Origin: Laetmonice hystrix
Lineage: Eukaryota
Assembly: GCA_965235115.1 (NCBI GenBank)
Contig: OZ249436.1
Span: forward strand, 28,832,001 to 28,896,000
Reading direction: 5' to 3'
DNA length: 64,000 bases
Made by a program: the position numbers and the translations under genes. This document shows, one piece after another, positions 1-64,000 of this stretch. The stretch's first letter is position 1; every line of letters begins with the position of its first letter. The notes under the pieces were generated by a model. That model had not been told where the DNA came from and ran no database searches. It saw only the letters and a list, made by a program, of their open reading frames with translations.

Positions 1-328
1 AGGTGACTGGGTGCTTTGAAAAAGCTTTGGGATCATCGGGAGCCATGTGGAACCGTCGGGAGGCATCGGAAGAACTGCGGAAAATTTCAATGCCTGCATT
101 AAATTTTTTCCTGATGTGGGGGCCGGGGAACAATAGGTGCCATCCGTTTCATCACTATATGGGGGTGAGGGTGGGGAAGGTGTTGGTTGTGTGGTCAGAG
201 GTAATGTCTGAGGGCCAGACAGCCATAGCATGTGGATTGGGAAGGGGATGAGATGTTGGCTAAGTGTTTGGAGGGAATGTCTGAGGACCAATCAGTCATG
301 TTAGGGATTGGAAAGGGGGATATTGGAT

Positions 329-583
329 TGGTTGGAGGTGGTAGTATAGAAGAAAACGAAAAATACCCCCAAAAAATTGCAAAAGAAAAAAATGAAACCG
401 CAGTTTGTGGGTGATGCATGTCGCAATACTGAGACATGTCTGCTGGGTGTTTATATCAGGGGTAATCTGATTTCGCTGTTCTGGTGAGTCACTGTGGGTG
501 GTTGGAGGTGGTAGTATAGAAGTAAAACGAAAAATACCCAAAAAAATCACAAAAGAAAAAAAATGAAAAAATGTTTGTGGGTG
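329..583 (+). repeat. Direct duplication of a ~85 bp A-tract block within the monomer (329-413 and 499-583)
   Basis: TGGTTGGAGGTGGTAGTATAGAAG(T)AAAACGAAAAATACCC...AAAAGAAAAAAATGAAA...GTTTGTGGGTG occurs twice, 170 bp apart, in each monomer. Confidence 0.92.
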
Positions 584-698
584 TTGACCCTTCAGATGAG
601 ATATCTGCACTGTGACACTACGCCACTCCTGCACACATGTCATTCTTGTCTTGTTGTAACTGAATGACTATAGTAAAAATCAACAATGATGAATTTGA

Positions 699-1330
699 GT
701 GAGTAGTTCGGGATAATGTTTTAAGGCCACTCGGCCATATCATGGGGATTGTGAAGGGATGAAGGTGTTGGCTGAGTGGTTAGGGGTAACGTCTGAGGGT
801 CAATCAGCCATATTATGGGGATTGGGAAATGGGGGTGTTGGCTGAATGCTTGAGGGGTAATGTCAGGAGGTCCGTCAGCCATATCAAGAAAGTTGAGAAG
901 AAGGGAGGTGTTGGGTGGGTGGTACGGGGTAATGTCTTAAGGCCACTCGGCCATTCCTGGGGGCTTAGGTCTTAGGGGTAAAGTCTGGGGGCCAGTGAGC
1001 CATATCATGGGGAGTGGGAAGGGAGATGTTGTTGTCTGAGATGTTGAGGGTAACGTCTGGTAACGTTGGTAATTTTGAGTCATTTTATCCTCATTTATTT
1101 TCATTATCATTCCCAGTGGGGCCCGGGGAACAATAGGCCCCATCCGTTTCAACACCCTATGGGTATGTGTGAGGGTGGAGAAGTTGTTGGCTGAGTGGTA
1201 CGGGGGAGGCCTGAGGGTCATTTGGCCATATCATCGGGGCTGGGAAGGGGGGGGGAAGGTGTTGGCTGATTGGTTAGGGGTAACGTCTGACTGCCAGCCA
1301 GCCATATCATGGGGTTTGGGGAATGGGAGG
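699..1330 (+). repeat. Degenerate G-rich ~70 bp subrepeat cluster within the monomer (about 7 copies here, plus about 2 at 179-320); repeated in every monomer
   Basis: Approximate consensus GGTGTTGGCTGAGTGGTTAGGGGTAA(C/T)GTCTGAGGGCCANTCAGCCATATCATGGGGATTGGGAAGGG. Copies begin near 179, 252, 699, 764, 834, 907, 968, 1183 and 1258. Confidence 0.9.
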
Positions 1331-1599
1331 CAGGGTCATGCTTACTTACAAAAACAGAAAGAGTTTACGATCACTCTCCATCTACATGGGCCAAAGGCCT
1401 ACAAGTACCTGCGAGAAAAAACTGACGTGGCATCTGAAGCACTCATGTTCATGGTAGTGGGAATGAAGGGCATCTGGAAGTCACCGACTGGATACTTATA
1501 ACACGGACACTCAAGCCTGACACTCAAAAAGTTCTTGTGGAACGTGCATTAAATATGCTTCATGAATGCAGTATCAGGGTTTTGTGCTTAACCATGGAT
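1328..1599 (+). pseudogene. P-element/THAP9-type transposase fragment (internally deleted, frameshifted), monomer 1; one copy in every monomer
   Basis: Translates to RQGHAYLQKQKEFTITLHLHGPKAYKYLREK / TDVASEALMFMVVGMKGIWKSPTGY / (frameshift) ITRTLKPDTQKVLVE(R/H)ALNMLHECSIRVLCLTMD. This resembles the P/THAP9 motifs FA(L/I)TLHxxSPKAYxY(L/V)R, A(S/T)EALVFMxVGxxGxWKxPIxY and IxVxxxTxD. Other copies start at about 3540, 6187, 8398, 10610, 12798, 15007, 17220, 19430, 21644, 23857, 26071, 28288, 30499, 32712, 34926, 37138, 39349, 41565, 43779, 45989, 48202, 50410, 52620, 54833, 57012, 59223, 61432 and 63640 (each ~270 bp). Confidence 0.85.
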
Positions 1600-1781
1600 A
1601 ATCAACAACCTTGTAAAGGGGCTGCTAAAAATGTCCATGTAAAAGGCTTGTTAGTAGATAGTACTGTTCATGTGACAGCCTTGCCTTGAAACCATTATGA
1701 TTTTGACATACGTTTTTTATATATTTTTTATACTTGTTTTACTTATAAATTATACGTGACAAACTAAGAAATAAGTTCCAT

Positions 1782-1898
1782 AGGAGATAAGACCTTAAAC
1801 AGGATCTGATTTGCTACATTAGTGAGGTATCCTGGCATGGTCAGCTCTGCCTCATGAACATATGGGTAAATTAGATCCTGTCTCAAGTTTTACCTCCT
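1782..1898. other. Long imperfect inverted repeat / fold-back hairpin (~117 nt), one per monomer
   Basis: Arm AGGAGATAAGACCTTAAACAGGATCTGATTTGCT (1782-1815) pairs with GGTAAATTAGATCCTGTCTCAAGTTTTACCTCCT (1865-1898) with 4 mismatches and 4 G-U pairs. Inner stems are TGAGGTA/TGCCTCA and CTGGC/GTCAG. Confidence 0.8.
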
Positions 1899-3539
1899 TA
1901 TTTGTTTAACAGCCCCCCCCCCGCCCAGTCTAAAAAAAGACGTTCCTGTTTTCTTGTTATTATTAAATGAGCAGCCTAAAAGGCCTAATCCAAAATTTCA
2001 CATATATGGAGCCCTTCTCTTTTGGGCAGGCACCGACTTCTGAAATTTTGGGAGCCTAACGTCACTTTTTTTTAACCGTTTTAACATAGCTTTGCTGGAC
2101 TACTATTTCAGCTTTTACATAGACCTAGTGAGGGCTTAGTCCCACTATGCATTTTTGGCCCTGGGGATGTTCTCCCAATGTAAACTGAAAAGCCTCCGGA
2201 GACTTCGGGAACAGGTGACTGGGTGCTTTGAAAAAGCTTTGGGATCATCGGTAGCCATGTGGAACCGTCGGGAGGCATCGGAAGAACTGCGGAAAATTTC
2301 AATGCCTGCATTAAATTTTTTCCTGATGTGGGGGCCGGGGAACAATAGGTGCCATCCGTTTCATCACTATATGGGGGTGAGGGTGGGGAAGGTGTTGGTT
2401 GTGTGGTCAGAGGTAATGTCTGAGGGCCAGACAGCCATAGCATGTGGATTGGGAAGGGGATGAGATGTTGGCTAAGTGTTTGGAGGGAATGTCTGAGGAC
2501 CAATCAGTCATGTTAGGGATTGGAAAGGGGGATATTGGATTGGTTGGAGGTGGTAGTATAGAAGAAAACGAAAAATACCCCCAAAAAATTGCAAAAGAAA
2601 AAAATGAAACCGCAGTTTGTGGGTGATGCATGTCGCAATACTGAGACATGTCTGCTGGGTGTTTATATCAGGGGTAATCTGATTTCGCTGTTCTGGTGAG
2701 TCACTGTGGGTGGTTGGAGGTGGTAGTATAGAAGTAAAACGAAAAATACCCAAAAAAATCACAAAAGAAAAAAAATGAAAAAATGTTTGTGGGTGTTGAC
2801 CCTTCAGATGAGATATCTGCACTGTGACACTACGCCACTCCTGCACACATGTCATTCTTGTCTTGTTGTAACTGAATGACTATAGTAAAAATCAACAATG
2901 ATGAATTTGAGTGAGTAGTTCGGGATAATGTTTTAAGGCCACTCGGCCATATCATGGGGATTGTGAAGGGATGAAGGTGTTGGCTGAGTGGTTAGGGGTA
3001 ACGTCTGAGGGTCAATCAGCCATATTATGGGGATTGGGAAATGGGGGTGTTGGCTGAATGCTTGAGGGGTAATGTCAGGAGGTCCGTCAGCCATATCAAG
3101 AAAGTTGAGAAGAAGGGAGGTGTTGGGTGGGTGGTACGGGGTAATGTCTTAAGGCCACTCGGCCATTCCTGGGGGCTTAGGTCTTAGGGGTAAAGTCTGG
3201 GGGCCAGTGAGCCATATCATGGGGAGTGGGAAGGGAGATGTTGTTGTCTGAGATGTTGAGGGTAACGTCTGGTAACGTTGGTAATTTTGAGTCATTTTAT
3301 CCTCATTTATTTTCATTATCATTCCCAGTGGGGCCCGGGGAACAATAGGCCCCATCCGTTTCAACACCCTATGGGTATGTGTGAGGGTGGAGAAGTTGTT
3401 GGCTGAGTGGTACGGGGGAGGCCTGAGGGTCATTTGGCCATATCATCGGGGCTGGGAAGGGGGGGGGGAGGTGTTGGCTGATTGGTTAGGGGTAACGTCT
3501 GACTGCCAGCCAGCCATATCATGGGGTTTGGGGAATGGG

Positions 3540-3811
3540 AGGCAGGGTCATGCTTACTTACAAGAACAGAAAGAGTTTACGATCACTCTCCATCTACATG
3601 GGCCAAAGGCCTACAAGTACCTGCGAGAAAAAACTGACGTGGCATCTGAAGCACTCATGTTCATGGTAGTGGGAATGAAGGGCATCTGGAAGTCACCGAC
3701 TGGATACTTATAACACGGACACTCAAGCCTGACACTCAAAAAGTTCTTGTGGAATGTGCATTAAATATGCTTCATGAATGCAGTATCAGGGTTTTGTGCT
3801 TAACCATGGAT
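3540..3811 (+). pseudogene. P-element/THAP9-type transposase fragment, monomer 2
   Basis: The C-terminal half of ORF 3381..3713 reads EQKEFTITLHLHGPKAYKYLREKTDVASEALMFMVVGMKGIWKSPTGY. The two pieces are in frame here and in monomer 1 (A6 run), and the similarity continues after a frameshift to ...IRVLCLTMD. Confidence 0.85.
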
Positions 3812-4273
3812 AATCAACAACCTTGTAAAGGGGCTGCTAAAAATGTCCATGTAAAAGGCTTGTTAGTAGATAGTACTGTTCATGTGACAGCCTTGCCTTG
3901 AAACCATTATGATTTTGACATACGTTTTTTATATATTTTTTATACTTGTTTTACTTATAAATTATACGTGACAAACTAAGAAATAAGTTCCATAAGACAT
4001 AAGACCTTAAACAGGATCTGATTTGCTACATTAGTGAGGTATCCTGGCATGGTCAGCTCTGCCTCATGAACATATGGGTAAATCAGATCCTGTCTCAAGT
4101 TTTACCTCCTTATTTGTTTAACAGCCCCCCCCCCCCGCCCAGTCTAAAAAAAGACGTTCCTGTTTTCTTGTTATTATTAAATGAGCAGCCTAAAAGGCCT
4201 AATCCAAAATTTCACATATATGGAGCCCTTCTCTTTTGGGCAGGCACCGACTTCTGAACTTTTGGGAGTCTAA

Positions 4274-4714
4274 GGCTGAGTTCACATAGGAGTATACGGT
4301 ATTCGCTATTCGGTATTCGCTATACGCTATACGGGCACGGCGAGTCCCGCCCGCCAGTGTCTTAATTCACGACATGAATTGAAAGGTGACCCCATGCCAC
4401 TCCCCTTGAACTGATTTCTTTGATATTTTCAGAGTCAATACCCCTATATATCGGCCCTTAGATCTGAAAATTTAGTTTAAAAATATCAAGAACTGTGTAA
4501 ATGCTGAACTTTTAAACACAGGCACCCCAAGGTATACGCTGCACTAAAATCAAACACGCACGATTCCCACTATACTATACTATACGCCTTTTCGAATAGT
4601 GCCCTCTGATGTGACCCGGTATTATAAGATCCTATTGTACGATTTAAGCTATTCGCGTGCCCTGCAAAACGTGCACCGTATACCCGTGCCGTATACTCCT
4701 ATGTGAACTCAGCC
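4274..4714. mobile_element. Non-autonomous MITE, PIF/Harbinger (Tourist-like) superfamily, 441 bp
   Basis: Perfect 26 bp TIRs: GGCTGAGTTCACATAGGAGTATACGG (4274-4299) and CCGTATACTCCTATGTGAACTCAGCC (4689-4714). Flanked by a TAA duplication (4271-4273 and 4715-4717). Sister monomers show the empty site GGGAGTC-TAA-CGTCAC. This monomer is ~444 bp longer than the others (441+3). No coding capacity. A TAA/TWA target duplication and GG(C)-starting TIRs are typical of PIF/Harbinger. Confidence 0.93.
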
Positions 4715-7700
4715 TAACGTCACTTTTTTAACCGTTTTAACATAGCTTTGCTGGACTACTATTTCAGCTTTTACATAGACCGAGTGAGGGCTTAGTCTCA
4801 CTAGGCATTTTTGTGGCCTTGGGATGTTCTCCCAATGTAAACTGAAAAGCCTCGGGAGACTTCGGGAACAGGTGACTGGGTGCTTTGAAAAAGCTTTGGG
4901 ATCATCGGGAGCCATGTGGAACCGTCGGGAGGCATCGGAAGAACTGCGGAAAATTTCAATGCCTGCATTAAATTTTTTCCTGATGTGGGGGCCGGGGAAC
5001 AATAGGTGCCATCCGTTTCATCACTATATGGGGGTGAGGGTGGGGAAGGTGTTGCTTGTGTGGTCAGAGGTAATGTCTGAGGGCCAGACAGCCATAGCAT
5101 GTGGATTGGGAAGGGGATGAGATGTTGGCTAAGTGTTTGGAGGGAATGTCTGATGACCAATCAGTCATGTTAGGGATTGGAAAGGGGGATATTGGATTGG
5201 TTGGAGGTGGTAGTATAGAAGAAAAACGAAAAATACCCCCAAAAAATCGCAAAAGAAAAAAATGAAACAACAGTTTGTGTGTGATGCATGTCGCAATACT
5301 GAGACATGTCTGCTGGGTGTTTATATCAGGGGTATTCTGATTTCGCTGTTCTGGTGAGTCACTGTGGGTGGTTGGAGGTGGTAGTATAAAAGAAAAACGA
5401 AAAATACCAAAAAAATCACAAAAGAAAAAAATGAAAAAATGTTTGTGGGTGTTGACCCTTCAGATGAGATATCTGCACTGTGACACTACGCCACTCCTGC
5501 ACACATGTCATTCTTGTCTTGTTGTAACTGAATGACTATAGTAAAAATCAATAATGATGAATTTGAATGAGTAGTTCGGGATAATGTTTTAAGGCCACTC
5601 GGCCATATCATGGAGATTGTGAAGGGATGAAGGTGTTGGCTGAGTGGTTAGGGGTAACGTCTGAGGGTCAATCAGCCATATTATAGGGATTGGGAAATGG
5701 GGGTGTTGGCTGAATGCTTGAGGGGTAGTGTCAGGAGGTCCGTCAGCCATATCATGAAAGTTGAGAAAAAGGGAGGTGTTGGGTGGGTGGTACGGGGTAA
5801 TGTCTTAAGGCCACTCGGCCATTCCTGGGGGCTTAGGTCTTAGGGGTAAAGTCTGGGGGCCAGTGAGCCATATCATGGGGAGTGGGAAGGGAGATGTTGT
5901 TGTCTGAGATGTTGAGGGTAACGTTGGTAATTTTGAGTCATTTTATCCTCATTTATTTTCATTATCATCCCCCGTGGGGCCCGGGGAACAATAGGCCCCA
6001 TCCGTTTCAACACCCTATGGGTATGTGTGAGGGTGGAGAAGTTGTTGGCTGAGTGGTACGGGGTAAGGCCTGAGGGTCATTTGGCCATATCATCGGGGCT
6101 GGGAAGGGGGGGGGAAGGTGTTGGCTGATTGGTTAGGGGTAACGTCTGACTGCCAGCCAGCCATATCATAGGGTTTGGGGAATGGGAGGCAGGGTCATGC
6201 TTACTTACAAGAACAGAAAGAGTTTACGATCACTCTCCATCTACATGGGCCAAAGGCCTACAAGTACCTGCGAGAAAAACTGACGTGACATCTGAAGCAC
6301 TCATGTTCATGGTAGTGGGAATGAAGGGCATCTGGAAGTCACCGACTGGATACTTATAACACGGACACTCAAGCCTGACACTCAAAAAGTTCTTGTGGAA
6401 CATGCATTAAATATGCTTCATGAATGCAGTATCAGCCTTTTGTGCTTAACCATGGATAGTCAACAACCTTGTAAAAGGGCTGCTAAAAATGTCCATGTAA
6501 AAGGTTTGTTAGTAGATAGTACTGTTCATGTGACAGCCTTGCCTTGAAACCATTATGATTTTGACATACGTTTTTTATATATTTTTTATACTTGTTTTAC
6601 TTATAAATTATACGTGACAAACTAAGAAATAAGTTCCATAGGAGATAAGACCTTAAACAGGATCTGATTTGCTACATTAGTGAGGTATCCTGGCATGGTC
6701 AGCTCTGCCTCATGAACATATGGGTAAATTAGATCCTGTCTCAAGTTTTACCTCCTTATTTGTTTAACAGGCCCCCCCCCCCGCCCAGTCTAAAAAAGAC
6801 GTTCCTGTTTTCTTGTTATTATAAAATGAGCAGCTTAAAAGGCCTCATCCAAAATTTCACATATATGGAGCCCTTCTCTTTTGGGCAGGCACCGACTTCT
6901 GAACTTTTGGGAGTCTAACGTCACTTTTTTAACCGTTTTAACATAGCTTTGCTGGGCTACTATTTCAGCTTTTACATAGACCTAGTGAGGGCTTAGTCCC
7001 ACTAGGCATTTTTTGGCCTTGGGATGTTCTCCCAATGTAAACTGAAAAGCCTCGGGAGACTTCGGGAACAGGTTACTGGGTGCTTTGAAAAAGCTTTGGG
7101 ATCATCGGGAGCCATGTGGAACCGTCGGGAGGCATCGGAAGAACTGCGGAAAATTTCAATGCCTGCATTAAATTTTTTCCTGATGTGGGTGCCGGGGAAC
7201 AATAGGTGCCATCCGTTTCATCACCATATGGGGGTGAGGGTGGGGAAGGTGTTGGTTGTGTGGTCAGAAGTAATGTCTGAGGGCCAGACAGCCATAGCAT
7301 GTGGATTGGGAAGGGGATGAGATGTTGGCTAAGTGTTTGGAGGGAATGTCTGAGGACCAATCAGTCATGTTAGGGATTGGAAAGGGGGATATTGGATTGG
7401 TTGGAGGTGGTAGTATAGAAGAAAAACGAAAAATACCCCCCAAAAAATCGCAAAAGAAAAAAATGAAACAACAGTTTGTGGGTGATGCATGTCGCAATAC
7501 TGAGACATGTCTGCTGGGTGTTTATATCAGGGGTAACCTGATTTCGCTGTTCTGGTGAGTCACTGTGGGTGGTTGGAGGTGGTAGTATAGAAGAAAAACG
7601 AAAAATACAAAAAAAATCACAAAAGAAAAAAATGAAAAAATGTTTGTGGGTGTTGACCCTTCAGATGAGATATCTGCACTGTGACACTACGCCACTCCTG

Positions 7701-8397
7701 CACACAATGTCATTCTTGTCTTGTTGTAACTGAATGACTATAGTAAAAATCAACAATGATGAATTTGAGTGAGTAGTTCGGGATAATGTTTTAAGGCCAC
7801 TCGGCCATATCATGGGGATTGTGAAGGGATGAAGGTGTTGGCTGAGTGGTTAGGGGTAACGTCTGAGGGTCAATCAGCCATATTATGGGGATTGGGAAAT
7901 GTGGGTGTTGGCTGAATGCTTGAGGGGTAATGTCAGGAGGTCCGTCAGCCATATCAAGAAAGTTGAGAAGAAGGGAGGTGTTGGGTGGGTGGTACGGGGT
8001 AATGTCTTAAGGCCACTCGGCCATTCCTGGGGGCTTAGGTCCCAGGGGTAAAGTCTGGGGGCCAGTGAGCCATATCATGGGGAGTGGGAAGGGAGATGTT
8101 GTTGTCTGAGATGTTGAGGGTAACGTCTGGTAACGTTGGTAATTTTGAGTCATTTTATCCTCATTTATTTTCATTATCATCCCCCGTGGGGCCCGGGGAA
8201 CAATAGGCCCCATCCGTTTCAACACCCTATGGGTATGTGTGAGGGTGGAGAAGTTGTTGGCTGAGTGGTACGGGGTAAGGCCTGAGGGTCATTTGGCCAT
8301 ATCATCGGGGCTGGGAAGGGGGGGGAAGGTGTTGGCTGATTGGTTAGGGGTAACGTCTGACTGCCAGCCAGCCATATCATGGGGTTTGGGGAATGGG

Positions 8398-8668
8398 AGG
8401 CAGGGTCATGCTTACTTACAAGAACAGAAAGAGTTTACGATCACTCTCCATCTACATGGGCCAAAGGCCTACAAGTACCTGCGAGAAAAACTGACGTGAC
8501 ATCTGAAGCACTCATGTTCATGGTAGTGGGAATGAAGGGCATCTGGAAGTCATGGACTGGATACTTATAACACGGACACTCAAGCCTGACACTCAAAAAG
8601 TTCTTGTGGAACATGCATTAAATATGCTTCATGAATGCAGTATCAGGGTTTTGTGCTTAACTATGGAT
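8398..8668 (+). pseudogene. P-element/THAP9-type transposase fragment, monomer 4 (three pieces in three ORFs)
   Basis: ORFs 8239..8499 (EFTITLHLHGPKAYKYLREK), 8379..8570 (TDVTSEALMFMVVGMKGIWK) and 8552..8758 (ITRTLKPDTQKVLVEHALNMLHECSIRVLCLTMD) carry consecutive transposase segments separated by two frameshifts. Confidence 0.85.
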
Positions 8669-11600
8669 AGTCAACAACCTTGTAAAGGGGCTGCTGAAAA
8701 TGTCCATGTAAAAGGGTTGTTAGTAGATAGTACTGTTCATGTGACAGCCTTGCCTTGAAACCATTATGATTTTGACATACGTTTTTTATATATTTTTTAT
8801 ACTTGTTTTACTTATAAATTATACGTGACAAACTAAGAAATAAGTTCCATAGGAGATAAGACCTTAAACAGGATCTGATTTGCTACATTAGTGAGGTATC
8901 CTGGCATGGTCAGCTCTGCCTCATGAACATATGGGTAAATTAGATCCTGTCTCAAGTTTTACCTCCTTATTTGTTTAACAGCCCCCCCCCCCCCGCCCAG
9001 TCTAAAAAAGACGTTCCTGTTTTCTTGTTATTATAAAATGAGCAGCCTAAAAGGCCTAATCCAAAATTTCACATATATGGAGCCCTTCTCTTTTGGGCAG
9101 GCACCGACTTCTGAACTTTTGGGAGTCTAACATCACTTTTTTAACCGTTTTAACATAGCTTTGCTGGGCTACTATTTCAGCTTTTACATAGACCTAGTGA
9201 GGGCTTAGTCCCACTAGGCATTTTTTGGCCTTGGGATGTTCTCCCAACGTAAACTGAAAAGCCTCGGGAGACTTCGGGAACAGGTTACTGGGTGCTTTGA
9301 AAAAGCTTTGGGATCATCGGGAGCCATGTGGAACCGTCGGGAGGCATCGGAAGAACTGCGGAAAATTTCAATGCCTGCATTAAATTTTTTCCTGATGTGG
9401 GTGCCGGGGAACAATAGGTGCCATCCGTTTCATCACCATATGGGGGTGAGGGTGGGGAAGGTGTTGGTTGTGTGGTCAGAAGTAATGTCTGAGGGCCAGA
9501 CAGCCATAGCATGTGGATTGGGAAGGGGATGAGATGTTGGCTAAGTGTTTGGAGGGAATGTCTGAGGACCAATCAGTCATGTTAGGGATTGGAAAGGGGG
9601 ATATTGGATTGGTTGGAGGTGGTAGTATAGAAGAAAAACGAAAAATACCCCCAAAAAAATCGCAAAAGAAAAAAATGAAACAACAGTTTGTGTGTGATGC
9701 ATGTCGCAATACTGAGACATGTCTGCTGGGTGTTTATATCAGGGGTAACCTGATTTCGCTGTTCTGGTGAGTCACTGTGGGTGGTTGGAGGTGGTAGTAT
9801 AGAAGAAAAACGAAAAATACCAAAAAAATCACAAAAGAAAAAAATGAAAAAATGTTTGTGGGTGTTGACCCTTCAGATGAGATATCTGCACTGTGACACT
9901 ACGCCACTCCTGCACACATGTCATTCTTGTCTTGTTGTAACTGAATGACTATAGTAAAAATCAACAATGATGAATTTGAGTGAGTAGTTCGGGATAATGT
10001 TTTAAGGCCACTCAGCCATATCATGGGGATTGTGAAGGGATGAAGGTGTTGGCTGAGTGGTTAGGGGTAACGTCTGAGGGTCAATCAGCCATATTATGGG
10101 GATTGGGAAATGGGGGTGTTGGCTGAATGCTTGAGGGGTAGTGTCAGGAGGTCCGTCAGCCATATCATGAAAGTTGAGAAAAAGGGAGGTGTTGGGTGGG
10201 TGGTACGGGGTAATGTCTTAAGGCCACTCGGCCATTCCTGGGGGCTTAGGTCTTAGGGGTAAAGTCTGGGGGCCAGTGAGCCATATCATGGGGAGTGGGA
10301 AGGGAGATGTTGTTGTCTGAGATGTTGAGGGTAACGTCTGGTAACGTTGGTAATTTTGAGTCATTTTATCCTCATTTATTTTCATTATCATCCCCCGTGG
10401 GGCCCGGGGAACAATAGGCCCCATCCGTTTCAACACCCTATGGGTATGTGTGAGGGTGGAGAAGTTGTTGGCTGAGTGGTACGGGGTAAGGCCTGAGGGT
10501 CATTTGGCCATATCATCGGGGCTGGGAAGGGGGGGGGAAGGTGTTGGCTGATTGGTTAGGGGTAACGTCTGACTGCCAGCCAGCCATATCATGGGGTTTG
10601 GGGAATGGGAGGCAGGGTCATGCTTACTTACAAGAACAGAAAGAGTTTACGATCACTCTCCATCTACATGGGCCAAAGGCCTACAAGTACCTGCGAGAAA
10701 AACTGACGTGACATCTGAAGCACTCATGTTCATGGTAGTGGGAATGAAGGGCATCTGGAAGTCACCGACTGGATACTTATAACACGGACACTCAAGCCTG
10801 ACACTCAAAAAGTTCTTGTGGAACATGCATTAAATATGCTTCATGAATGCAGTATCAGCCTTTTGTGCTTAACCATGGATAGTCAACAACCTTGTAAAAG
10901 GGCTGCTAAAAATGTCCATGTAAAAGGCTTGTTAGTAGATAGTACTGTTCATGTGACAGCCTTGCCTTGAAACCATTATGATTTTGACATACGTTTTTTT
11001 ATATATTTTTTATACTTGTTTTACTTATAAATTATACGTGACAAACTAAGAAATAAGTTCCATAGGAGATAAGACCTTAAACAGGATCTGATTTGCTACA
11101 TTAGTGAGGTATCCTGGCATGGTCAGCTCTGCCTCATGAACATATGGGTAAATAAGATCCTGTCTCAAGTTTTACCTCCTTATTTGTTTAACAGCCCCCC
11201 CCCCCCCCGCCCAGTCTAAAAAAGACGTTCCTGTTTTCTTGTTATTATAAAATGAGCAGCCTAAAAGGCCTAATCCAAAATTTCACATATATGGAGCCCT
11301 TCTCTTTTGGGCAGGCACCGACTTCTGAACTTTTGGGAGTCTAACATCACTTTTTTAACCGTTTTAACATAGCGTTGCTGGGCTACTATTTCAGCTTTTA
11401 CATAGACCTAGTGAGGGCTTAGTCCCACTAGGCATTTTTGGCCTTGGGATGTTCTCCCAACGTAAACTGAAAAGCCTCGGGAGACTTCGGGAACAGGTTA
11501 CTGGGTGCTTTGAAAAAGCTTTGGGATCATCGGGAGCCATGTGGAACCGTCGGGAGGCATCGGAAGAACTGCGGAAAATTTCAATGCCTGCATTAAATTT

Positions 11601-14600
11601 TTTCCTGATGTGGGTGCCGGGGAACAATAGGTGCCATCCGTTTCATCACCATATGGGGGTGAGGGTGGGGAAGGTGTTGGTTGTGTGGTCAGAAGTAATG
11701 TCTGAGGGCCAGACAGCCATAGCATGTGGATTGGGAAGGGGATGAGATGTTGGCTAAGTGTTTGGAGGGAATGTCTGAGGACCAATCAGTCATGTTAGGG
11801 ATTGGAAAGGGGGATATTGGATTGGTTGGAGGTGGTAGTATAGAAGAAAAACGAAAAATACCCCCCAAAAAATCGCAAAAGAAAAAAATGAAACAACAGT
11901 TTGTGTGTGATGCATGTCGCAATACTGAGACATGTCTGCTGGGTGTTTATATCAGGGGTAACCTGATTTCGCTGTTCTGGTGAGTCACTGTGGGTGGTTG
12001 GAGGTGGTAGTATAGAAGAAAAACGAAAAATACCAAAAAAATCACAAAAGAAAAAAATGAAAAAATGTTTGTGGGTGTTGACCCTTCAGATGAGATATCT
12101 GCACTGTGACACTACGCCACTCCTGCACACATGTCATTCTTGTCTTGTTGTAACTGAATGACTATAGTAAAAATCAACAATGATGAATTTGAGTGAGTAG
12201 TTCGGGATAATGTTTTAAGGCCACTCAGCCATATCATGGGGATTGTGAAGGGATGAAGGTGTTGGCTGAGTGGTTAGGGGTAACGTCTGAGGGTCAATCA
12301 GCCATATTATGGGGATTGGGAAATGGGGGTGTTGGCTGAATGCTTGAGGGGTAGTGTCAGGAGGTCCGTCAGCCATATCATGAAAGTTGAGAAAAAGGGA
12401 GGTGTTGGGTGGGTGGTACGGGGTAATGTCTTAAGGCCACTCGGCCATTCCTGGGGGCTTAGGTCTTAGGGGTAAAGTCTGGGGGCCAGTGAGCCATATC
12501 ATGGGGAGTGGGAAGGGAGATGTTGTTGTCTGAGATGTTGAGGGTAACGTCTGGTAACGTTGGTAATTTTGAGTCATTTTATCCTCATTTATTTTCATTA
12601 TCATCCCCCGTGGGGCCCGGGGAACAATAGGCCCCATCCGTTTCAACACCCTATGGGTATGTGTGAGGGTGGGTAAGGCCTGAGGGTCATTTGGCCATAT
12701 CATCGGGGCTGGGAAGGGGGGGGGGAAGGTGTTGGCTGATTGGTTAGGGGTAACGTCTGACTGCCAGCCAGCCATATCATGGGGTTTGGGGAATGGGAGG
12801 CAGGGTCATGCTTACTTACAAGAACAGAAAGAGTTTACGATCACTCTCCATCTACATGGGCCAAAGGCCTACAAGTACCTGCGAGAAAAACTGACGTGAC
12901 ATCTGAAGCACTCATGTTCATGGTAGTGGGAATGAAGGGCATCTGGAAGTCACCGACTGGATACTTATAACACGGACACTCAAGCCTGACACTCAAAAAG
13001 TTCTTGTGGAACATGCATTAAATATGCTTCATGAATGCAGTATCAGCCTTTTGTGCTTAACCATGGATAGTCAACAACCTTGTAAAAGGGCTGCTAAAAA
13101 TGTCCATGTAAAAGGCTTGTTAGTAGATAGTACTGTTCATGTGACAGCCTTGCCTTGAAACCATTATGATTTTGACATACGTTTTTTATATATTTTTTAT
13201 ACTTGTTTTACTTATAAATTATACGTGACAAACTAAGAAATAAGTTCCATAGGAGATAAGACCTTAAACAGGATCTGATTTGCTACATTAGTGAGGTATC
13301 CTGGCATGGTCAGCTCTGCCTCATGAACATATGGGTAAATTAGATCCTGTCTCAAGTTTTACCTCCTTATTTGTTTAACAGCCCCCCCCCCCCGCCCAGT
13401 CTAAAAAAGACGTTCCTGTTTTCTTGTTATTATAAAATGAGCAGCCTAAAAGGCCTAATCCAAAATTTCACATATATGGAGCCCTTCTCTTTTGGGCAGG
13501 CACCGACTTCTGAACTTTTGGGAGTCTAACATCACTTTTTTAACCGTTTTAACATAGCGTTGCTGGGCTACTATTTCAGCTTTTACATAGACCTAGTGAG
13601 GGCTTAGTCCCACTAGGCATTTTTGGCCTTGGGATGTTCTCCCAACGTAAACTGAAAAGCCTCGGGAGACTTCGGGAACAGGTTACTGGGTGCTTTGAAA
13701 AAGCTTTGGGATCATCGGGAGCCATGTGGAACCGTCGGGAGGCATCGGAAGAACTGCGGAAAATTTCAATGCCTGCATTAAATTTTTTCCTGATGTGGGT
13801 GCCGGGGAACAATAGGTGCCATCCGTTTCATCACCATATGGGGGTGAGGGTGGGGAAGGTGTTGGTTGTGTGGTCAGAAGTAATGTCTGAGGGCCAGACA
13901 GCCATAGCATGTGGATTGGGAAGGGGATGAGATGTTGGCTAAGTGTTTGGAGGGAATGTCTGAGGACCAATCAGTCATGTTAGGGATTGGAAAGGGGGAT
14001 ATTGGATTGGTTGGAGGTGGTAGTATAGAAGAAAAACGAAAAATACCCCCCAAAAAATCGCAAAAGAAAAAAATGAAACAACAGTTTGTGTGTGATGCAT
14101 GTCGCAATACTGAGACATGTCTGCTGGGTGTTTATATCAGGGGTAACCTGATTTCGCTGTTCTGGTGAGTCACTGTGGGTGGTTGGAGGTGGTAGTATAG
14201 AAGAAAAACGAAAAATACCAAAAAAATCACAAAAGAAAAAAATGAAAAAATGTTTGTGGGTGTTGACCCTTCAGATGAGATATCTGCACTGTGACACTAC
14301 GCCACTCCTGCACACATGTCATTCTTGTCTTGTTGTAACTGAATGACTATAGTAAAAATCAATAATGATGAATTTGAATGAGTAGTTCGGGATAATGTTT
14401 TAAGGCCACTCGGCCATATCATGGAGATTGTGAAGGGATGAAGGTGTTGGCTGAGTGGTTAGGGGTAACGTCTGAGGGTCAATCAGCCATATTATGGGGA
14501 TTGGGAAATGGGGGTGTTGGCTGAATGCTTGAGGGGTAGTGTCAGGAGGTCCGTCAGCCATATCATGAAAGTTGAGAAAAAGGGAGGTGTTGGGTGGGTG

Positions 14601-17600
14601 GTACGGGGTAATGTCTTAAGGCCACTCGGCCATTCCTGGGGGCTTAGGTCTTAGGGGTAAAGTCTGGGGGCCAGTGAGCCATATCATGGGGAGTGGGAAG
14701 GGAGATGTTGTTGTCTGAGATGTTGAGGGTAACGTCTGGTAACGTTGGTAATTTTGAGTCATTTTATCCTCATTTATTTTCATTATCATCCCCCGTGGGG
14801 CCCGGGGAACAATAGGCCCCATCCGTTTCAACACCCTATGGGTATGTGTGAGGGTGGAGAAGTTGTTGGCTGAGTGGTACGGGGTAAGGCCTGAGGGTCA
14901 TTTGGCCATATCATCGGGGCTGGGAAGGGGGGGGAAGGTGTTGGCTGATTGGTTAGGGGTAACGTCTGACTGCCAGCCAGCCATATCATGGGGTTTGGGG
15001 AATGGGAGGCAGGGTCATGCTTACTTACAAGAACAGAAAGAGTTTACGATCACTCTCCATCTACATGGGCCAAAGGCCTACAAGTACCTGCGAGAAAAAC
15101 TGACGTGACATCTGAAGCACTCATGTTCATGGTAGTGGGAATGAAGGGCATCTGGAAGTCACCGACTGGATACTTATAACACGGACACTCAAGCCTGACA
15201 CTCAAAAAGTTCTTGTGGAACATGCATTAAATATGCTTCATGAATGCAGTATCAGCCTTTTGTGCTTAACCATGGATAGTCAACAACCTTGTAAAAGGGC
15301 TGCTAAAAATGTCCATGTAAAAGGCTTGTTAGTAGATAGTACTGTTCATGTGACAGCCTTGCCTTGAAACCATTATGATTTTGACATACGTTTTTTATAT
15401 ATTTTTTATACTTGTTTTACTTATAAATTATACGTGACAAACTAAGAAATAAGTTCCATAGGAGATAAGACCTTAAACAGGATCTGATTTGCTACATTAG
15501 TGAGGTATCCTGGCATGGTCAGCTCTGCCTCATGAACATATGGGTAAATTAGATCCTGTCTCAAGTTTTACCTCCTTATTTGTTTAACAGCCCCCCCCCC
15601 CCCGCCCAGTCTAAAAAAGACGTTCCTGTTTTCTTGTTATTATAAAATGAGCAGCCTAAAAGGCCTAATCCAAAATTTCACATATATGGAGCCCTTCTCT
15701 TTTGGGCAGGCACCGACTTCTGAACTTTTGGGAGTCTAACATCACTTTTTTACCCGTTTTAACATAGCTTTGCTGGGCTACTATTTCAGCTTTTACATAG
15801 ACCTAGTGAGGGCTTAGTCCCACTAGGCATTTTTTGGCCTTGGGATGTTCTCCCAACGTAAACTGAAAAGCCTCGGGAGACTTCGGGAACAGGTTACTGG
15901 GTGCTTTGAAAAAGCTTTGGGATCATCGGGAGCCATGTGGAACCGTCGGGAGGCATCGGAAGAACTGCGGAAAATTTCAATGCCTGCATTAAATTTTTTC
16001 CTGATGTGGGTGCCGGGGAACAATAGGTGCCATCCGTTTCATCACCATATGGGGGTGAGGGTGGGGAAGGTGTTGGTTGTGTGGTCAGAAGTAATGTCTG
16101 AGGGCCAGACAGCCATAGCATGTGGATTGGGAAGGGGATGAGATGTTGGCTAAGTGTTTGGAGGGAATGTCTGAGGACCAATCAGTCATGTTAGGGATTG
16201 GAAAGGGGGATATTGGATTGGTTGGAGGTGGTAGTATAGAAGAAAAACGAAAAATACCCCCAAAAAAATCGCAAAAGAAAAAAATGAAACAACAGTTTGT
16301 GTGTGATGCATGTCGCAATACTGAGACATGTCTGCTGGGTGTTTATATCAGGGGTAACCTGATTTCGCTGTTCTGGTGAGTCACTGTGGGTGGTTGGAGG
16401 TGGTAGTATAGAAGAAAAACGAAAAATACCAAAAAAATCACAAAAGAAAAAAATGAAAAAATGTTTGTGGGTGTTGACCCTTCAGATGAGATATCTGCAC
16501 TGTGACACTACGCCACTCCTGCACACATGTCATTCTTGTCTTGTTGTAACTGAATGACTATAGTAAAAATCAACAATGATGAATTTGAGTGAGTAGTTCG
16601 GGATAATGTTTTAAGGCCACTCAGCCATATCATGGGGATTGTGAAGGGATGAAGGTGTTGGCTGAGTGGTTAGGGGTAACGTCTGAGGGTCAATCAGCCA
16701 TATTATGGGGATTGGGAAATGGGGGTGTTGGCTGAATGCTTGAGGGGTAGTGTCAGGAGGTCCGTCAGCCATATCATGAAAGTTGAGAAAAAGGGAGGTG
16801 TTGGGTGGGTGGTACGGGGTAATGTCTTAAGGCCACTCGGCCATTCCTGGGGGCTTAGGTCTTAGGGGTAAAGTCTGGGGGCCAGTGAGCCATATCATGG
16901 GGAGTGGGAAGGGAGATGTTGTTGTCTGAGATGTTGAGGGTAACGTCTGGTAACGTTGGTAATTTTGAGTCATTTTATCCTCAATTATTTTCATTATCAT
17001 CCCCCGTGGGGCCCGGGGAACAATAGGCCCCATCCGTTTCAACACCCTATGGGTATGTGTGAGGGTGGAGAAGTTGTTGGCTGAGTGGTACGGGGTAAGG
17101 CCTGAGGGTTATTTGGCCATATCATCGGGGCTGGGAAGGGGGGGGGGAAGGTGTTGGCTGATTGGTTAGGGGTAACGTCTGACTGCCAGCCAGCCATATC
17201 ATGGGGTTTGGGGAATGGGAGGCAGGGTCATGCTTACTTACAAGAACAGAAAGAGTTTACGATCACTCTCCATCTACATGGGCCAAAGGCCTACAAGTAC
17301 CTGCGAGAAAAACTGACGTGACATCTGAAGCACTCATGTTCATGGTAGTGGGAATGAAGGGCATCTGGAAGTCACCGACTGGATACTTATAACACGGACA
17401 CTCAAGCCTGACACTCAAAAAGTTCTTGTGGAACATGCATTAAATATGCTTCATGAATGCAGTATCAGCCTTTTGTGCTTAACCATGGATAGTCAACAAC
17501 CTTGTAAAAGGGCTGCTAAAAATGTCCATGTAAAAGGCTTGTTAGTAGATAGTACTGTTCATGTGACAGCCTTGCCTTGAAACCATTATGATTTTGACAT

Positions 17601-20600
17601 ACGTTTTTTATATATTTTTTATACTTGTTTTACTTATAAATTATACGTGACAAACTAAGAAATAAGTTCCATAGGAGATAAGACCTTAAACAGGATCTGA
17701 TTTGCTACATTAGTGAGGTATCCTGGCATGGTCAGCTCTGCCTCATGAACATATGGGTAAATTAGATCCTGTCTCAAGTTTTACCTCCTTATTTGTTTAA
17801 CAGCCCCCCCCCCCGCCCAGTCTAAAAAGACGTTCCCGTTTTCTTGTTATTATAAAATGAGCAGCCTAAAAGGCCTAATCCAAAATTTCACATATATGGA
17901 GCCCTTCTCTTTTGGGCAGGCACCGACTTCTGAACTTTTGGGAGTCTAACATCACTTTTTTAACCGTTTTAACATAGCTTTGCTGGGCTACTATTTCAGC
18001 TTTTACATAGACCTAGTGAGGGCTTAGTCCCACTAGGCATTTTTTGGCCTTGGGATGTTCTCCCAACGTAAACTGAAAAGCCTCGGGAGACTTCGGGAAC
18101 AGGTTACTGGGTGCTTTGAAAAAGCTTTGGGATCATCGGGAGCCATGTGGAACCGTCGGGAGGCATCGGAAGAACTGCGGAAAATTTCAATGCCTGCATT
18201 AAATTTTTTCCTGATGTGGGTGCCGGGGAACAATAGGTGCCATCCGTTTCATCACCATATGGGGGTGAGGGTGGGGAAGGTGTTGGTTGTGTGGTCAGAA
18301 GTAATGTCTGAGGGCCAGACAGCCATAGCATGTGGATTGAGAAGGGGATGAGATGTTGGCTAAGTGTTTGGAGGGAATGTCTGAGGACCAATCAGTCATG
18401 TTAGGGATTGGAAAGGGGGATATTGGATTGGTTGGAGGTGGTAGTATAGAAGAAAAACGAAAAATACCCCCAAAAAAATCGCAAAAGAAAAAAATGAAAC
18501 AACAGTTTGTGTGTGATGCATGTCGCAATACTGAGACATGTCTGCTGGGTGTTTATATCAGGGGTAACCTGATTTCGCTGTTCTGGTGAGTCACTGTGGG
18601 TGGTTGGAGGTGGTAGTATAGAAGAAAAACGAAAAATACCAAAAAAATCACAAAAGAAAAAAATGAAAAAATGTTTGTGGGTGTTGACCCTTCAGATGAG
18701 ATATCTGCACTGTGACACTACGCCACTCCTGCACACATGTCATTCTTGTCTTGTTGTAACTGAATGACTATAGTAAAAATCAACAATGATGAATTTGAGT
18801 GAGTAGTTCGGGATAATGTTTTAAGGCCACTCGGCCATATCATGGGGATTGTGAAGGGATGAAGGTGTTGGCTGAGTGGTTAGGGGTAACGTCTGAGGGT
18901 CAATCAGCCATATTATGGGGATTGGGAAATGGGGGTGTTGGCTGAATGCTTGAGGGGTAGTGTCAGGAGGTCCGTCAGCCATATCAAGAAAGTTGAGAAG
19001 AAGGGAGGTGTTGGGTGGGTGGTACGGGGTAATGTCTTAAGGCCACTCGGCCATTCCTGGGGGCTTAGGTCCCAGGGGTAAAGTCTGGGGGCCAGTGAGC
19101 CATATCATGGGGAGTGGGAAGGGAGATGTTGTTGTCTGAGATGTTGAGGGTAACGTCTGGTAACGTTGGTAATTTTGAGTCATTTTATCCTCATTTATTT
19201 TCATTATCATCCCCCGTGGGGCCCGGGGAACAATAGGCCCCATCCGTTTCAACACCCTATGGGTATGTGTGAGGGTGGAGAAGTTGTTGGCTGAGTGGTA
19301 CGGGGTAAGGCCTGAGGGTCATTTGGCCATATCATCGGGGCTGGGAAGGGGGGGGGGAAGGTGTTGGCTGATTGGTTAGGGGTAACGTCTGACTGCCAGC
19401 CAGCCATATCATGGGGTTTGGGGAATGGGAGGCAGGGTCATGCTTACTTACAAGAACAGAAAGAGTTTACGATCACTCTCCATCTACATGGGCCAAAGGC
19501 CTACAAGTACCTGCGAGAAAAACTGATGTGACATCTGAAGCACTCATGTTCATGGTAGTGGGAATGAAGGGCATCTGGAAGTCACCGACTGGATACTTAT
19601 AACACGGACACTCAAGCCTGACACTCAAAAAGTTCTTGTGGAACATGCATTAAATATGCTTCATGAATGCAGTATCAGCCTTTTGTGCTTAACCATGGAT
19701 AGTCAACAACCTTGTAAAAGGGCTGCTAAAAATGTCCATGTAAAAGGCTTGTTAGTAGATAGTACTGTTCATGTGACAGCCTTGCCTTGAAACCATTATG
19801 ATTTTGACATACGTTTTTTATATATTTTTTATACTTGTTTTACTTATAAATTATACGTGACAAACTAAGAAATAAGTTCCATAAGACCTAAGACCTTAAA
19901 CAGGATCTGATTTGCTACATTAGTGAGGTATCCTGGCATGGTCAGCTCTGCCTCATGAACATATGGCTAAATAAGATCCTGTCTCAAGTTTTACCTCCTT
20001 ATTTGTTTAACAGCCCCCCCCCCCCCCGCCCAGTCTAAAAAAAGACGTTCCTGTTTTCTTGTTATTATTAAATGAGCAGCCTAAAAGGCCTAATCCAAAA
20101 TTTCACATATATGGAGCCCTTCTCTTTTGGGCAGGCACCGACTTCTGAAATTTTGGGACTCTAACGTCACTTTTTTAACCGTTTTAACATAGCTTTGCTG
20201 GACTACTATTTCAGCTTTTACATAGACCGAGTGAGGGCTCAGTCTCACTAGGCATTTTTGTGGCCTTGGGATGTTCTCCCAATGTAAACTGAAAAGCCTC
20301 GGGAGACTTCGGGAACAGGTGACTGGGTGCTTTGAAAAAGCTTTGGGATCATCGGGAGCCATGTGGAACCGTCGGGAGGCATCGGAAGAACTGCGGAAAA
20401 TTTCAATGCCTGCATTAAATTTTTTCCTGATGTGGGTGCCGGGGAACAATAGGTGCCATCCGTTTCATCACTATATGGGGGTGAGGGTGGGGAAGGTGTT
20501 GGTTGTGTGGTCAGAAGTAATGTCTGAGGGCCAGACAGCCATAGCATGTGGATTGGGAAGGGGATGAGATGTTGGCTAAGTGTTTGGAGGGAATGTCTGA

Positions 20601-62600: not shown

Positions 62601-63639
62601 CCAATCAGTCATGTCAGGGATTGGAAAGGGGGATATTGGATTGGTTGGAGGTGGTAGTATAGAAGAAAAACGAAAAACACCCCCAAAAAATCGCAAAAGA
62701 AAAGAAAAAAAACAACAGTTTGTGGGTGATGCATGTCCCAATACTGAGACATGTCTGCTGGGTGTTTATATCAGGGGTATTCTGATTTCGCTGTTCTGGT
62801 GAGTCGTTGTGGGTGGTTGGAGGTGGTAGTATAAAAGAAAAACGAAAAATAACAAAAAAATCACAAAAGAAAAAAATGAAAAAATGTTTGTGGGTATTGA
62901 CCCTTCAGATGAGATATCTGCACTGTGACACTACGCCACTCCTGCACACATGTCATTCTTGTCTTGTTGTAACTGAATGACTATAGTAAAAATCAATAAT
63001 GATGAATTTGAATGAGTAGTTCGGGATAATGTTTTAAGGCGACTCGGCCATATCATGGAGATTGTGAAGGGATGAAGGTGTTGGCTGAGTGGTTAGGGGT
63101 AACGTCTGAGGGTCAATCAGCCATATTATGGGGATTGGGAAATGGGGGTGTTGGCTGAATGCTTGAGGGGTAGTGTCAGGAGGTCCGTCAGCCATATCAT
63201 GAAAGTTGAGAAAAAGGGAGGTGTTGGGTGGGTGGTACGGGGTAATGTCTTAAGGCCACTCGGCCATTCCTGGGGGCTTAGGTCTTAGGGGTAAAGTCTG
63301 GGGGCCAGTGAGCCATATCATGGGGAGTGGGAAGGGAGATGTTGTTGTCTGAGATGTTGAGGGTAACGTCTGGTAACGTTGGTAATTTTGAGTCATTTTA
63401 TCCTCATTTATTTTCATTATCATCCCCCGTGGGGCCCGGGGAACAATAGGCCCCATCCGTTTCAACACCCTATGGGTATGTGTGAGGGTGGAGAAGTTGT
63501 TGGCTGAGTGGTACGGGGTAAGGCCTGAGGGTCATTTGGCCATATCATCGGGGCTGGGAAGGGGGGGAAGGTGTTGGCTGATTGGTTAGGGGTAACGTCT
63601 GACTGCCAGCCAGCCATATCATGGGGTTTGGGGAATGGG

Positions 63640-63910
63640 AGGCAGGGTCATGCTTATTTACAAGAACAGAAAGAGTTTACGATCACTCTCCATCTACATG
63701 GGCCAAAGGCCTACAAGTACCTGCGAGAAAAACTGACGTGACATCTGAAGCACTCATGTTCATGGTAGTGGGAATGAAGGGCATCTGGAAGTCACCGACT
63801 GGATACTTATAACACGGACACTCAAGCCTGACACTCAAAAAGTTCTTGTGGAACATGCATTAAATATGCTTCATGAATGCAGTATCAGCCTTTTGTGCTT
63901 AACCATGGAT
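63640..63910 (+). pseudogene. P-element/THAP9-type transposase fragment, last monomer in the window
   Basis: Same sequence as in the other monomers. ORF 63621..63812 carries TDVTSEALMFMVVGMKGIWKSPTGY. Confidence 0.8.
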
Positions 63911-64000
63911 AGTCAACAACCTTGTAAAAGGGCTGCTAAAAATGTCCATGTAAAAGGCTTGTTAGTAGATAGTACTGTTCATGTGACAGCCTTGCCTTGA

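What the first reader, a model, noticed from the sequence alone, without database searches (positions are those of the whole stretch)
1328..1599. A dead P-element/THAP9 transposase piece is built into the satellite monomer and amplified at least 29-fold
Seen: every monomer carries ~270 bp translating to P/THAP9-like motifs, with no THAP domain, terminal repeats or full ORF. Established: P-type transposases have an RNase H-like D-D-E core, and the D in LTMD falls where the second acidic residue is expected. Inference: a transposon fragment was captured before the monomer amplified. If the array is transcribed, it could supply piRNAs or siRNAs against the cognate P family, acting as a tandemly amplified transposon memory. 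It may equally be a neutral passenger.
Basis: partly seen in the sequence, partly recalled or inferred. Interest (0 to 1): 0.7.

Follow-up and report, generated by a model that had tools for sequence, protein, structure and literature searches.

The report
Dead P-transposon scrap in tandem repeat
Each of 29 head-to-tail copies of a 2.2-kb repeat carries the same broken scrap of a P-type jumping-gene enzyme, likely copied along as a passenger when a patch of repeat debris was amplified, which is a known and fairly ordinary way for satellite DNA to arise.

Summary
Observation confirmed. All 29 units (about 2212 bp, 1.1% apart) carry a 272-bp P/THAP9-like transposase remnant (Pfam PF12017 and PF21787; 57 of 88 residues identical to teleost proteins). 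The D of LTMD aligns with catalytic D303 of Drosophila P transposase. The remnant is dead: about 80 codons with the first catalytic D are deleted, it ends at that second D, every unit has a frameshift, and 27 of 29 have a second. Contigs of one sample hold P copies about 90% alike that run on across both breaks, so a cognate family exists. The remnant is 12% of a composite unit and varies as much as the rest (14 sites, 14.6 expected). Best reading: a likely neutral passenger in a composite 'TE-graveyard' satellite, a described kind. The piRNA role is untested and has precedent (Su(Ste) units carry a deleted P-superfamily hoppel). Side lead: the remnant groups with fish-type proteins, while unchecked earlier notes call the host an annelid, so horizontal transfer is possible. 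The scan's notes hold no earlier report of this sequence; they record similar passengers in other satellites of this genome.

The parts
1..64000 (+). Head-to-tail array of 29 units of about 2212 bp (2174-2218; unit 2 is 2657 with an insertion; unit 29 is cut by the window end). Unit starts: 1, 2213, 4870, 7070, 9282 ... 60106, 62314
   Evidence: mean pairwise divergence 1.1%, range 0-2.0%, 28 whole units; no minus-strand copy of unit 1
1328..1417 (+). Block A: part of the helix-turn-helix domain of a P/THAP9-like transposase (P0010 residues 265-294, 20 of 30 identical)
   Evidence: PF12017 E 3e-8
1416..1421 (+). Deletion joint (run of A): about 80 codons missing, including the first catalytic D (P0010 D346 = Drosophila D230). 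Six A (in frame) in units 1-2, five A (frameshift) in 27 of 29 units
   Evidence: host contigs run on with other letters at this place (loose end before 10700 in 3 of 3 runs)
1421..1495 (+). Block B: RNase H-like strands (P0010 376-400, 18 of 25 identical)
   Evidence: PF21787 positions 65-89, E 9.1e-6
1496..1500 (+). Frameshift present in all 29 units; units 10, 11, 13 and 15 lack one more base nearby
   Evidence: a related host contig has one more letter here (table 4, place 10776)
1501..1599 (+). Block C: RNase H-like helix and strand ending in LTMD; D = second catalytic residue (P0010 403-435, 19 of 33 identical)
   Evidence: PF21787 positions 91-127, E 2.6e-5; D in this column in 49 of 53 rows
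1600..1781 (.). AT-rich stretch (GC 0.30) after the second break; no transposase homology found; its start is shared with another host contig
   Evidence: best six-frame score reached by 26-155 of 200 shuffles, 5 relatives; (loose end before 10908)
198..326 (+). Two decayed copies of a G-rich subrepeat of about 72 bp
   Evidence: nhmmer E 1e-16 and 4e-6
710..1326 (+). Seven more copies of the 72-bp subrepeat with other DNA between; the last (1276-1326) is cut at profile position 53 of about 72, exactly where the transposase remnant begins
   Evidence: far higher summed contig depth than the remnant
1782..1898 (.). 117-nt hairpin (31-nt arms, 81% complementary) in each unit; likely a decayed small foldback element
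   Evidence: folding z -6.7 and -5.2 on the two strands, 0 of 200 shuffles; no Rfam family at its cut-off
4274..4714 (.). 441-bp insertion in unit 2 only: 26-bp perfect terminal inverted repeats, TAA duplicated; likely a PIF/Harbinger-type non-autonomous element
   Evidence: 3-bp duplication is a PIF/Harbinger mark (PMC2213677, listing only)

Best explanation
The 272 bp are a doubly broken, frameshifted remnant of a P/THAP9-like transposase gene present in all 29 units, likely carried as a neutral passenger when a 2.2-kb patch of old repeat debris was tandemly amplified. Shown: identity, the breaks, presence in every unit, 1.1% divergence between units, a unit built of unrelated parts (72-bp subrepeats, remnant, hairpin), and P copies about 90% alike elsewhere in the host. 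Inferred order: a P element came to abut a decayed 72-bp satellite block; deletions removed its front, about 80 codons with the first catalytic D, and the coding part after the second D; a frameshift followed; the patch was then duplicated and spread by unequal exchange and conversion, which would explain the mosaic of shared variants among non-adjacent units; later still a small TIR element landed in unit 2. The remnant cannot make a transposase. If the array is read by a germline small-RNA pathway, some P-matching RNAs would be a by-product, not the reason for the amplification.
For: Pfam and fish THAP9-like hits. D230 equivalent deleted, D303 kept, nothing beyond. Frameshift in 29 of 29 units, a second in 27 of 29. 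14 of 119 variable sites fall in the remnant against 14.6 expected, p = 1.0; 9 of the 14 change a residue; 11 of 49 sliding 272-bp windows are as uniform or more so. The remnant is 12% of the unit; subrepeat hits cover 605 of 2212 bp. Identical or near-identical units lie far apart (units 16 and 19, 17 and 20: 0 substitutions). Contigs in 3 of 3 runs share the satellite-P joint over 1209-1359 at about 90% and then differ, and others match 1934-2133 or the unit border at 85-90%, so the parts are older than this array. Composite monomers of this kind are described (PMC12628747 section 5).
Against: Neutrality is argued from variation inside one array, which has little power against a role as RNA. 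The host does hold a cognate family close enough to be targeted: Su(Ste) silences Ste at about 90% identity (PMC10567549). Heterochromatic position was not tested. Only one other part of the unit has a transposon-like shape (the hairpin), and no repeat library was at hand to name the parts. The three runs are one sample and may be the source of the assembly, so they are not independent. The array's ends lie outside the window, so a carrier element cannot be excluded.
Confidence: 0.7

Rival explanations
1. Small-RNA memory: the array is transcribed in the germline and its 29 or more P pieces supply, or trigger, piRNAs that silence the host's P family, much as hoppel/1360 does in Su(Ste) units.
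For: Host contigs 88-92% alike to the remnant run on across both breaks, one for about 2.5 kb. Precedent: Su(Ste) 2843-bp units with a centrally deleted hoppel/1360, a P-superfamily element (PMC3698922); piRNAs against small P segments suffice to suppress dysgenesis (PMC7776569).
Against: No extra uniformity of the remnant. It lacks element ends, whereas Su(Ste) transcription starts inside a hoppel that keeps its 31-bp ends. Two related host contigs differ from the array at different places and one has several gaps, so an active parent is not shown.
Confidence: 0.08
2. The unit is itself a non-autonomous P element multiplied in tandem by double insertion, its ends later eroded, as in the D. 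guanche P array or Bari1.
For: P dimers form readily and older arrays lose their ends (PMC5932611). The DNA just after the second break is shared with another host contig of depth similar to the P relatives, so the P-derived part may extend past 1599.
Against: No end-to-end junction with a short spacer and CA/TG termini among 10 short inverted repeats, and none of 3 CA..TG 13-mer pairs has matching 8-bp flanks (unit 5). The remnant abuts a cut subrepeat, and the subrepeat is far more abundant than the P part.
Confidence: 0.1
3. The array is cargo or product of another mobile element (Helentron rolling circle, or a foldback element with satellite arms), which captured the P piece and multiplied it.
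For: Such routes are described (PMC12628747 section 4). Unchecked notes report satellite-armed and Helentron elements elsewhere in this genome. Contigs 85-90% alike match other parts of the unit.
Against: All 29 units face one way. Sequence look-ups of 700-1330 and 1328-2212 in the scan's notes found 0 look-alikes. The candidate end hairpin at 2100-2200 folds no better than shuffles (z -0.2 and -1.6).
Confidence: 0.09
4. The remnant is a domesticated, translated piece (a short repressor-like peptide).
For: Blocks A and B are in one frame in units 1 and 2.
Against: No THAP domain; join out of frame in 27 of 29 units; 9 of 14 variants change a residue; longest ATG frame per unit 77-115 codons.
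Confidence: 0.01
5. The array is an assembly artefact.
For: Two pairs of units have no substitutions between them.
Against: Units differ by up to 2% with shared, structured variants; contigs of 3 of 3 runs cover all 30 bins of the unit and show several of the same variants. Copy number may still be off.
Confidence: 0.02

Closest known systems
Composite satellite monomers from 'TE graveyards' (Satovic-Vuksic, Majcen and Plohl 2025, PMC12628747; abstract, section 5 and part 1 of 2 of section 4 read)
   Same: A tandem unit made of short stretches of decayed repeats and transposon pieces, amplified as a block.
   Different: Here one piece is still readable transposase-coding DNA, the unit is long (2.2 kb), and only one part is assigned to a named transposon family.
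Drosophila crystal/Su(Ste) repeat with hoppel/1360 (PMC13643785 and PMC10567549, passages; hoppel is P superfamily, PMC3698922, passages)
   Same: Head-to-tail units of 2-3 kb, a few dozen copies, each with an internally deleted P-superfamily remnant.
   Different: Hoppel keeps its 31-bp ends, holds the transcription start and is cut by maternal piRNAs, and the target is Stellate. Here no ends were found, the remnant is coding debris, and no RNA has been shown.
Tandem arrays of whole DNA transposons: P dimers, D. guanche P array, Bari1, hobo (McGurk and Barbash 2018, PMC5932611, passages)
   Same: P-derived DNA in a head-to-tail array; a piRNA role was suggested for Bari1.
   Different: Those units are nearly whole elements; here P is 12% of the unit and no end junction was found.
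Chenopodium CficCl-61-40 satellite from a CACTA tnp2 fragment (PMC7320549, abstract only)
   Same: Transposase-coding DNA ends up in a satellite monomer.
   Different: There a 40-bp piece is the monomer; here a 272-bp piece is one part of a large unit; different superfamily and kingdom.
Zebrafish Pdre/THAP9 elements (bioRxiv 10.1101/2024.03.22.586318, passages) and teleost THAP9-like proteins such as P0010
   Same: Domain order (HTH, RNase H) and second catalytic D; 57 of 88 residues identical to P0010, P0007 and P0002.
   Different: No THAP domain, first or third catalytic residue, terminal repeats or 8-bp duplication. Zebrafish THAP9 itself was not compared.

Membership tests
P superfamily transposase (origin of the remnant) | HTH domain PF12017 followed by RNase H N-terminal domain PF21787 | tested here: met
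   both above Pfam cut-off, in this order
P superfamily transposase (origin of the remnant) | Second catalytic aspartate (Drosophila D303) | tested here: met
   LTMD D = P0010 D435 = 6P5A residue 303
P superfamily transposase (working enzyme) | First and third catalytic residues (D230, E531), THAP domain, open frame | tested here: not met
   D230 equivalent in the deleted 80 codons; nothing after D303; frameshifts
P element (mobile or non-autonomous) / double-insertion tandem | Terminal inverted repeats with a 7-8-bp target duplication at the unit junction | tested here: not met
   scan of unit 5 only; strongly decayed ends could be missed
Composite 'TE-graveyard' satellite | Head-to-tail array of homogenised units | tested here: met
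   29 units, 1.1% mean divergence, one orientation
Composite 'TE-graveyard' satellite | Unit holds stretches of several different transposons or repeats | tested here: inconclusive
   one named transposon piece, an older 72-bp repeat, an unnamed hairpin and parts shared with other host contigs; no eukaryotic repeat library at hand
Composite 'TE-graveyard' satellite | Heterochromatic location | not testable with these tools
   no genome held for this window
Su(Ste)-type piRNA-producing array | A target about 90% alike exists in the genome | tested here: met
   related contigs at 88-92% over 59-146 letters; one sample; activity unknown
Su(Ste)-type piRNA-producing array | Germline transcription and phased or ping-pong piRNAs from the unit | not testable with these tools
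   only contigs of unrecorded kind were offered
Su(Ste)-type piRNA-producing array | Transposon remnant keeps its ends and holds the transcription start | tested here: not met
   no ends found; the start of transcription itself could not be tested

The most novel reading that the evidence does not exclude
A fish-type P element that crossed into an annelid by horizontal transfer left a remnant that the host then amplified at least 29-fold in a tandem array, which serves as a piRNA source against the P copies, still about 90% alike, in its genome: a Su(Ste)-like anti-transposon array outside flies. The transfer part alone is likelier (about 0.3) than the silencing part (about 0.08).
Probability: 0.04. 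Interest if true: 0.65.

Novelty: new member of a known kind. Interest (0 to 1): 0.22.

Why it matters
As it stands it is a clean example of a satellite unit built from transposon debris, with the order of events readable (joint with an older repeat, deletion, frameshift, amplification, later insertion) and relatives of the parent still in the genome. That makes it a usable test case for the open question of whether composite satellites gain functions. If small RNAs from the remnant silence the host's P family, it would show tandem amplification acting as a dose booster for transposon defence outside Drosophila. If the host is an annelid and the fish-type placement holds, it adds a cross-phylum transfer of a P element.

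Tried and rejected
No whole genome is held for this window, so intact parent elements and the array's ends could not be searched. Sequencing runs: 3 listed, one sample, kind not on record; no RNA holder listed, which says nothing on expression. The remnant alone found no solved structure (1 chance hit, E 4.9); the relative P0010 was used as a bridge. The 43-residue block C found no candidates in the word-based protein search. Rfam on 1-7100: one match at 23 bits against a cut-off of 95.5, E 0.33, rejected. ARAGORN: 0 tRNA genes. A suspected transposase C-terminus in 1596-1800 scored no better than shuffles for 5 of 5 relatives. P-type termini in unit 5: none. Second hairpin 2100-2200: not significant. 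Nesting inside the fish group: suggested at bootstrap 98 under LG+G4, but the mixture model left the remnant unresolved at the base of the fish-type group (93/96), and a tree with the fish-type rows as one clade without it was not rejected (p-AU 0.485); only 'closer to fish-type than to any sampled invertebrate' stands. I first assumed a fish host from the protein hits and dropped that after the notes; I could not test the host either way. Contig depth was not used as a copy number.

Full report
Observation. The window is one array of 29 head-to-tail units of about 2212 bp. The 28 whole units differ by 1.1% on average, 0 to 2.0%, and all face one way. Each holds the stretch 1328-1599; the other 28 copies are 97.1-99.3% identical to the first. 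The array runs off both ends of the window, so 29 is a minimum.

Identity. The frame 1328-1498 matches Pfam PF12017 (P-element HTH, E 3e-8) and PF21787 (RNase H N-terminal, E 2.3e-6); 1492-1620, in another frame, continues PF21787 (E 2.6e-5); all pass the curated cut-offs. A protein search gave 37 hits of 46 candidates, 35 named and all of these teleost; a search without a word index gave 57. Three blocks map on the relative P0010: 1328-1417 to residues 265-294, 1421-1495 to 376-400, 1501-1599 to 403-435, with 57 of 88 residues identical. P0010 aligns with Drosophila P transposase, PDB 6P5A, at E 2.8e-30. Counting along that alignment, D435 is D303 and D346 is D230; D230, D303 and E531 are the catalytic residues (PMC7776569, passages).

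How dead. About 80 codons are missing between blocks A and B (81 between my block borders in most full relatives). The join is in frame only in units 1 and 2; 27 of 29 units have one A fewer. A frameshift near 1496-1500 is in all 29. Homology ends at the second D: all 360 tblastn stretches from 112 relatives on units 1-2 overlap the remnant, and 1596-1800 scores no better than shuffles against 5 of 5 long relatives. A scan of unit 5 found no P-type end junction.

The rest of the unit. A G-rich subrepeat of about 72 bp gives 11 profile hits (9 at E below 1e-5) covering 605 of 2212 bp; the last copy is cut at position 53 exactly where the remnant starts. After the remnant come an AT-rich stretch and a 117-nt hairpin at 1782-1898 (z -6.7, 0 of 200 shuffles) with no Rfam family. 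Unit 2 alone has a 441-bp insertion with 26-bp perfect inverted ends and a TAA duplication, so the array still takes insertions. The remnant is 12% of the unit.

The host's other copies. Three runs of one sample, kept as contigs, kind not on record, hold the unit; they may be the source of the assembly and are not independent. Laid on unit 5, most contigs match closely, but in 3 of 3 runs some match at 88-92% and then run on with other letters exactly at the breaks: before place 10700 (first deletion) and behind 10879 (second break, in contigs of 2550 and 2548 letters in two runs). Read by hand in the transposase frame, these loose letters continue like the motifs that flank the same points in the fish proteins. 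One such contig has one more letter at the shared frameshift. So the host keeps less deleted P copies, and the array's breaks are derived. Whether any copy is intact is unknown; two related contigs differ from the array at different places and one has 7 gaps. Laid on unit 1, contigs in 3 of 3 runs share the satellite-P joint over 1209-1359 with 14 other letters and 3 gaps and then differ, which suggests that the joint is older than this array. Summed depth is about 1,300-13,000 over the remnant and up to 750,000 over the subrepeat; the tool warns that this is no copy number, so I take from it only that the subrepeat is a far commoner family. Both answers show only part of their rows.

Passenger or function. 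Of 119 variable sites in 28 units, 14 fall in the remnant against 14.6 expected by length (p = 1.0); 9 change a residue and 5 do not; its diversity, 0.0082, is matched or undercut by 11 of 49 sliding windows. This excludes constraint on a protein and gives no sign of special care, but it has little power against a role as RNA. No RNA evidence could be had either way. I commit to a passenger (0.7). The inferred mechanism: P element beside an old satellite block, deletions and a frameshift, duplication of a 2.2-kb patch, spread by unequal exchange and conversion. The last step is inferred from variants shared by distant units, such as units 16 and 19 or 17 and 20 with no substitutions between them.

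What is known. Composite monomers arising from transposon debris are proposed and exemplified in PMC12628747 (abstract, section 5 whole, section 4 part 1 of 2), which names their function as an open question. A transposase fragment founding a satellite is reported in Chenopodium (PMC7320549, abstract). P dimers, the D. guanche P array and the idea that the Bari1 array is kept as a piRNA source are in PMC5932611 (passages). Also seen: PMC9659126 (abstract), PMC6947457 (passages), bioRxiv 10.1101/2024.03.22.586318 (passages), PMC2213677 (listing). In the listings of searches I saw no report of a THAP9-like coding piece inside a satellite unit outside Drosophila; the library lacks most subscription journals, I read listings only, and no supplements were opened.

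Side lead. The remnant is 49-57 of 88 identical to the 19 best collinear relatives (17 fish-named, 2 unnamed), against 37-40 for the best named invertebrates (Plakobranchus, Clavelina, Patella). A search with the P0010 core gave 25 hits of 206 candidates; every named hit was a teleost except Patella at 48%. For a tree I kept 52 of 126 proteins, dropping 74 as short or not collinear, then 33 of these 53 rows for a mixture model. The remnant joins the fish-type group (93/96), but nesting within it is not shown (p-AU 0.485), its branch is long, and there are only 88 columns. Earlier notes of this scan call the host an annelid; these are unchecked and I could not test them. If right, transfer between fish and a worm lineage is possible, but annelid transposases are probably thinly sampled (my assumption). 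Transfers among animal phyla are known and commonest between close kin (bioRxiv 10.1101/2024.12.18.629015, passages).

Verdict. A real feature, correctly identified; a new member of a known kind. The scan's notes hold nothing near this place or like this sequence. Interest 0.22. The bold reading, a horizontally acquired P family held down by an amplified remnant, is not excluded: probability 0.04, interest 0.65.

Noticed in passing
window 4274-4714: 441-bp element in unit 2 only, 26-bp perfect terminal inverted repeats, TAA duplicated against the empty site in other units; likely PIF/Harbinger-type and recent. Short internal repeats at 4292-4334.
   Followed up: partly
window 1782-1898 and each unit: 117-nt hairpin, folding z -6.7 (+) and -5.2 (-); no Rfam family. 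Would give double-stranded RNA if the unit is transcribed, but does not overlap the P remnant.
   Followed up: partly
window 1328-1599: The remnant is much closer to teleost P/THAP9-like proteins (up to 57 of 88 identical) than to named invertebrate ones (37-40 of 88), while unchecked notes call the host an annelid: candidate horizontal transfer.
   Followed up: partly
window 198-326 and 710-1326: A G-rich 72-bp subrepeat with very high contig depth and many rearranged joints in the host's runs; probably a major satellite family with several higher-order forms. Unit 1 holds four TTAGGG and no CCCTAA.
   Followed up: no
window 1209-1359 (contigs of runs X1-X3): A sister locus about 90% alike shares the satellite-P joint and then continues differently, apparently with another internal deletion of the P element.
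   Followed up: no
window 329-416 and 499-586; 116-175 and 1116-1175: Two further internal duplications within the unit (88 bp at 78%, 60 bp at 82%), signs of older rounds of duplication.
   Followed up: no
whole window: Units fall into variant groups that interleave along the array (for example 12, 14, 16, 19, 24 versus 15, 17, 20, 25); units 1 and 2 are the most distinct and may lie towards an array edge. Units 3, 6 and 25 have private deletions of about 10, 26 and 35 bp.
   Followed up: partly
window 1934-2133 and 2070-2210 joined to 10-211: Contigs 85-90% alike match these parts and continue into other DNA, so this part of the unit also belongs to other repeat families.
   Followed up: no
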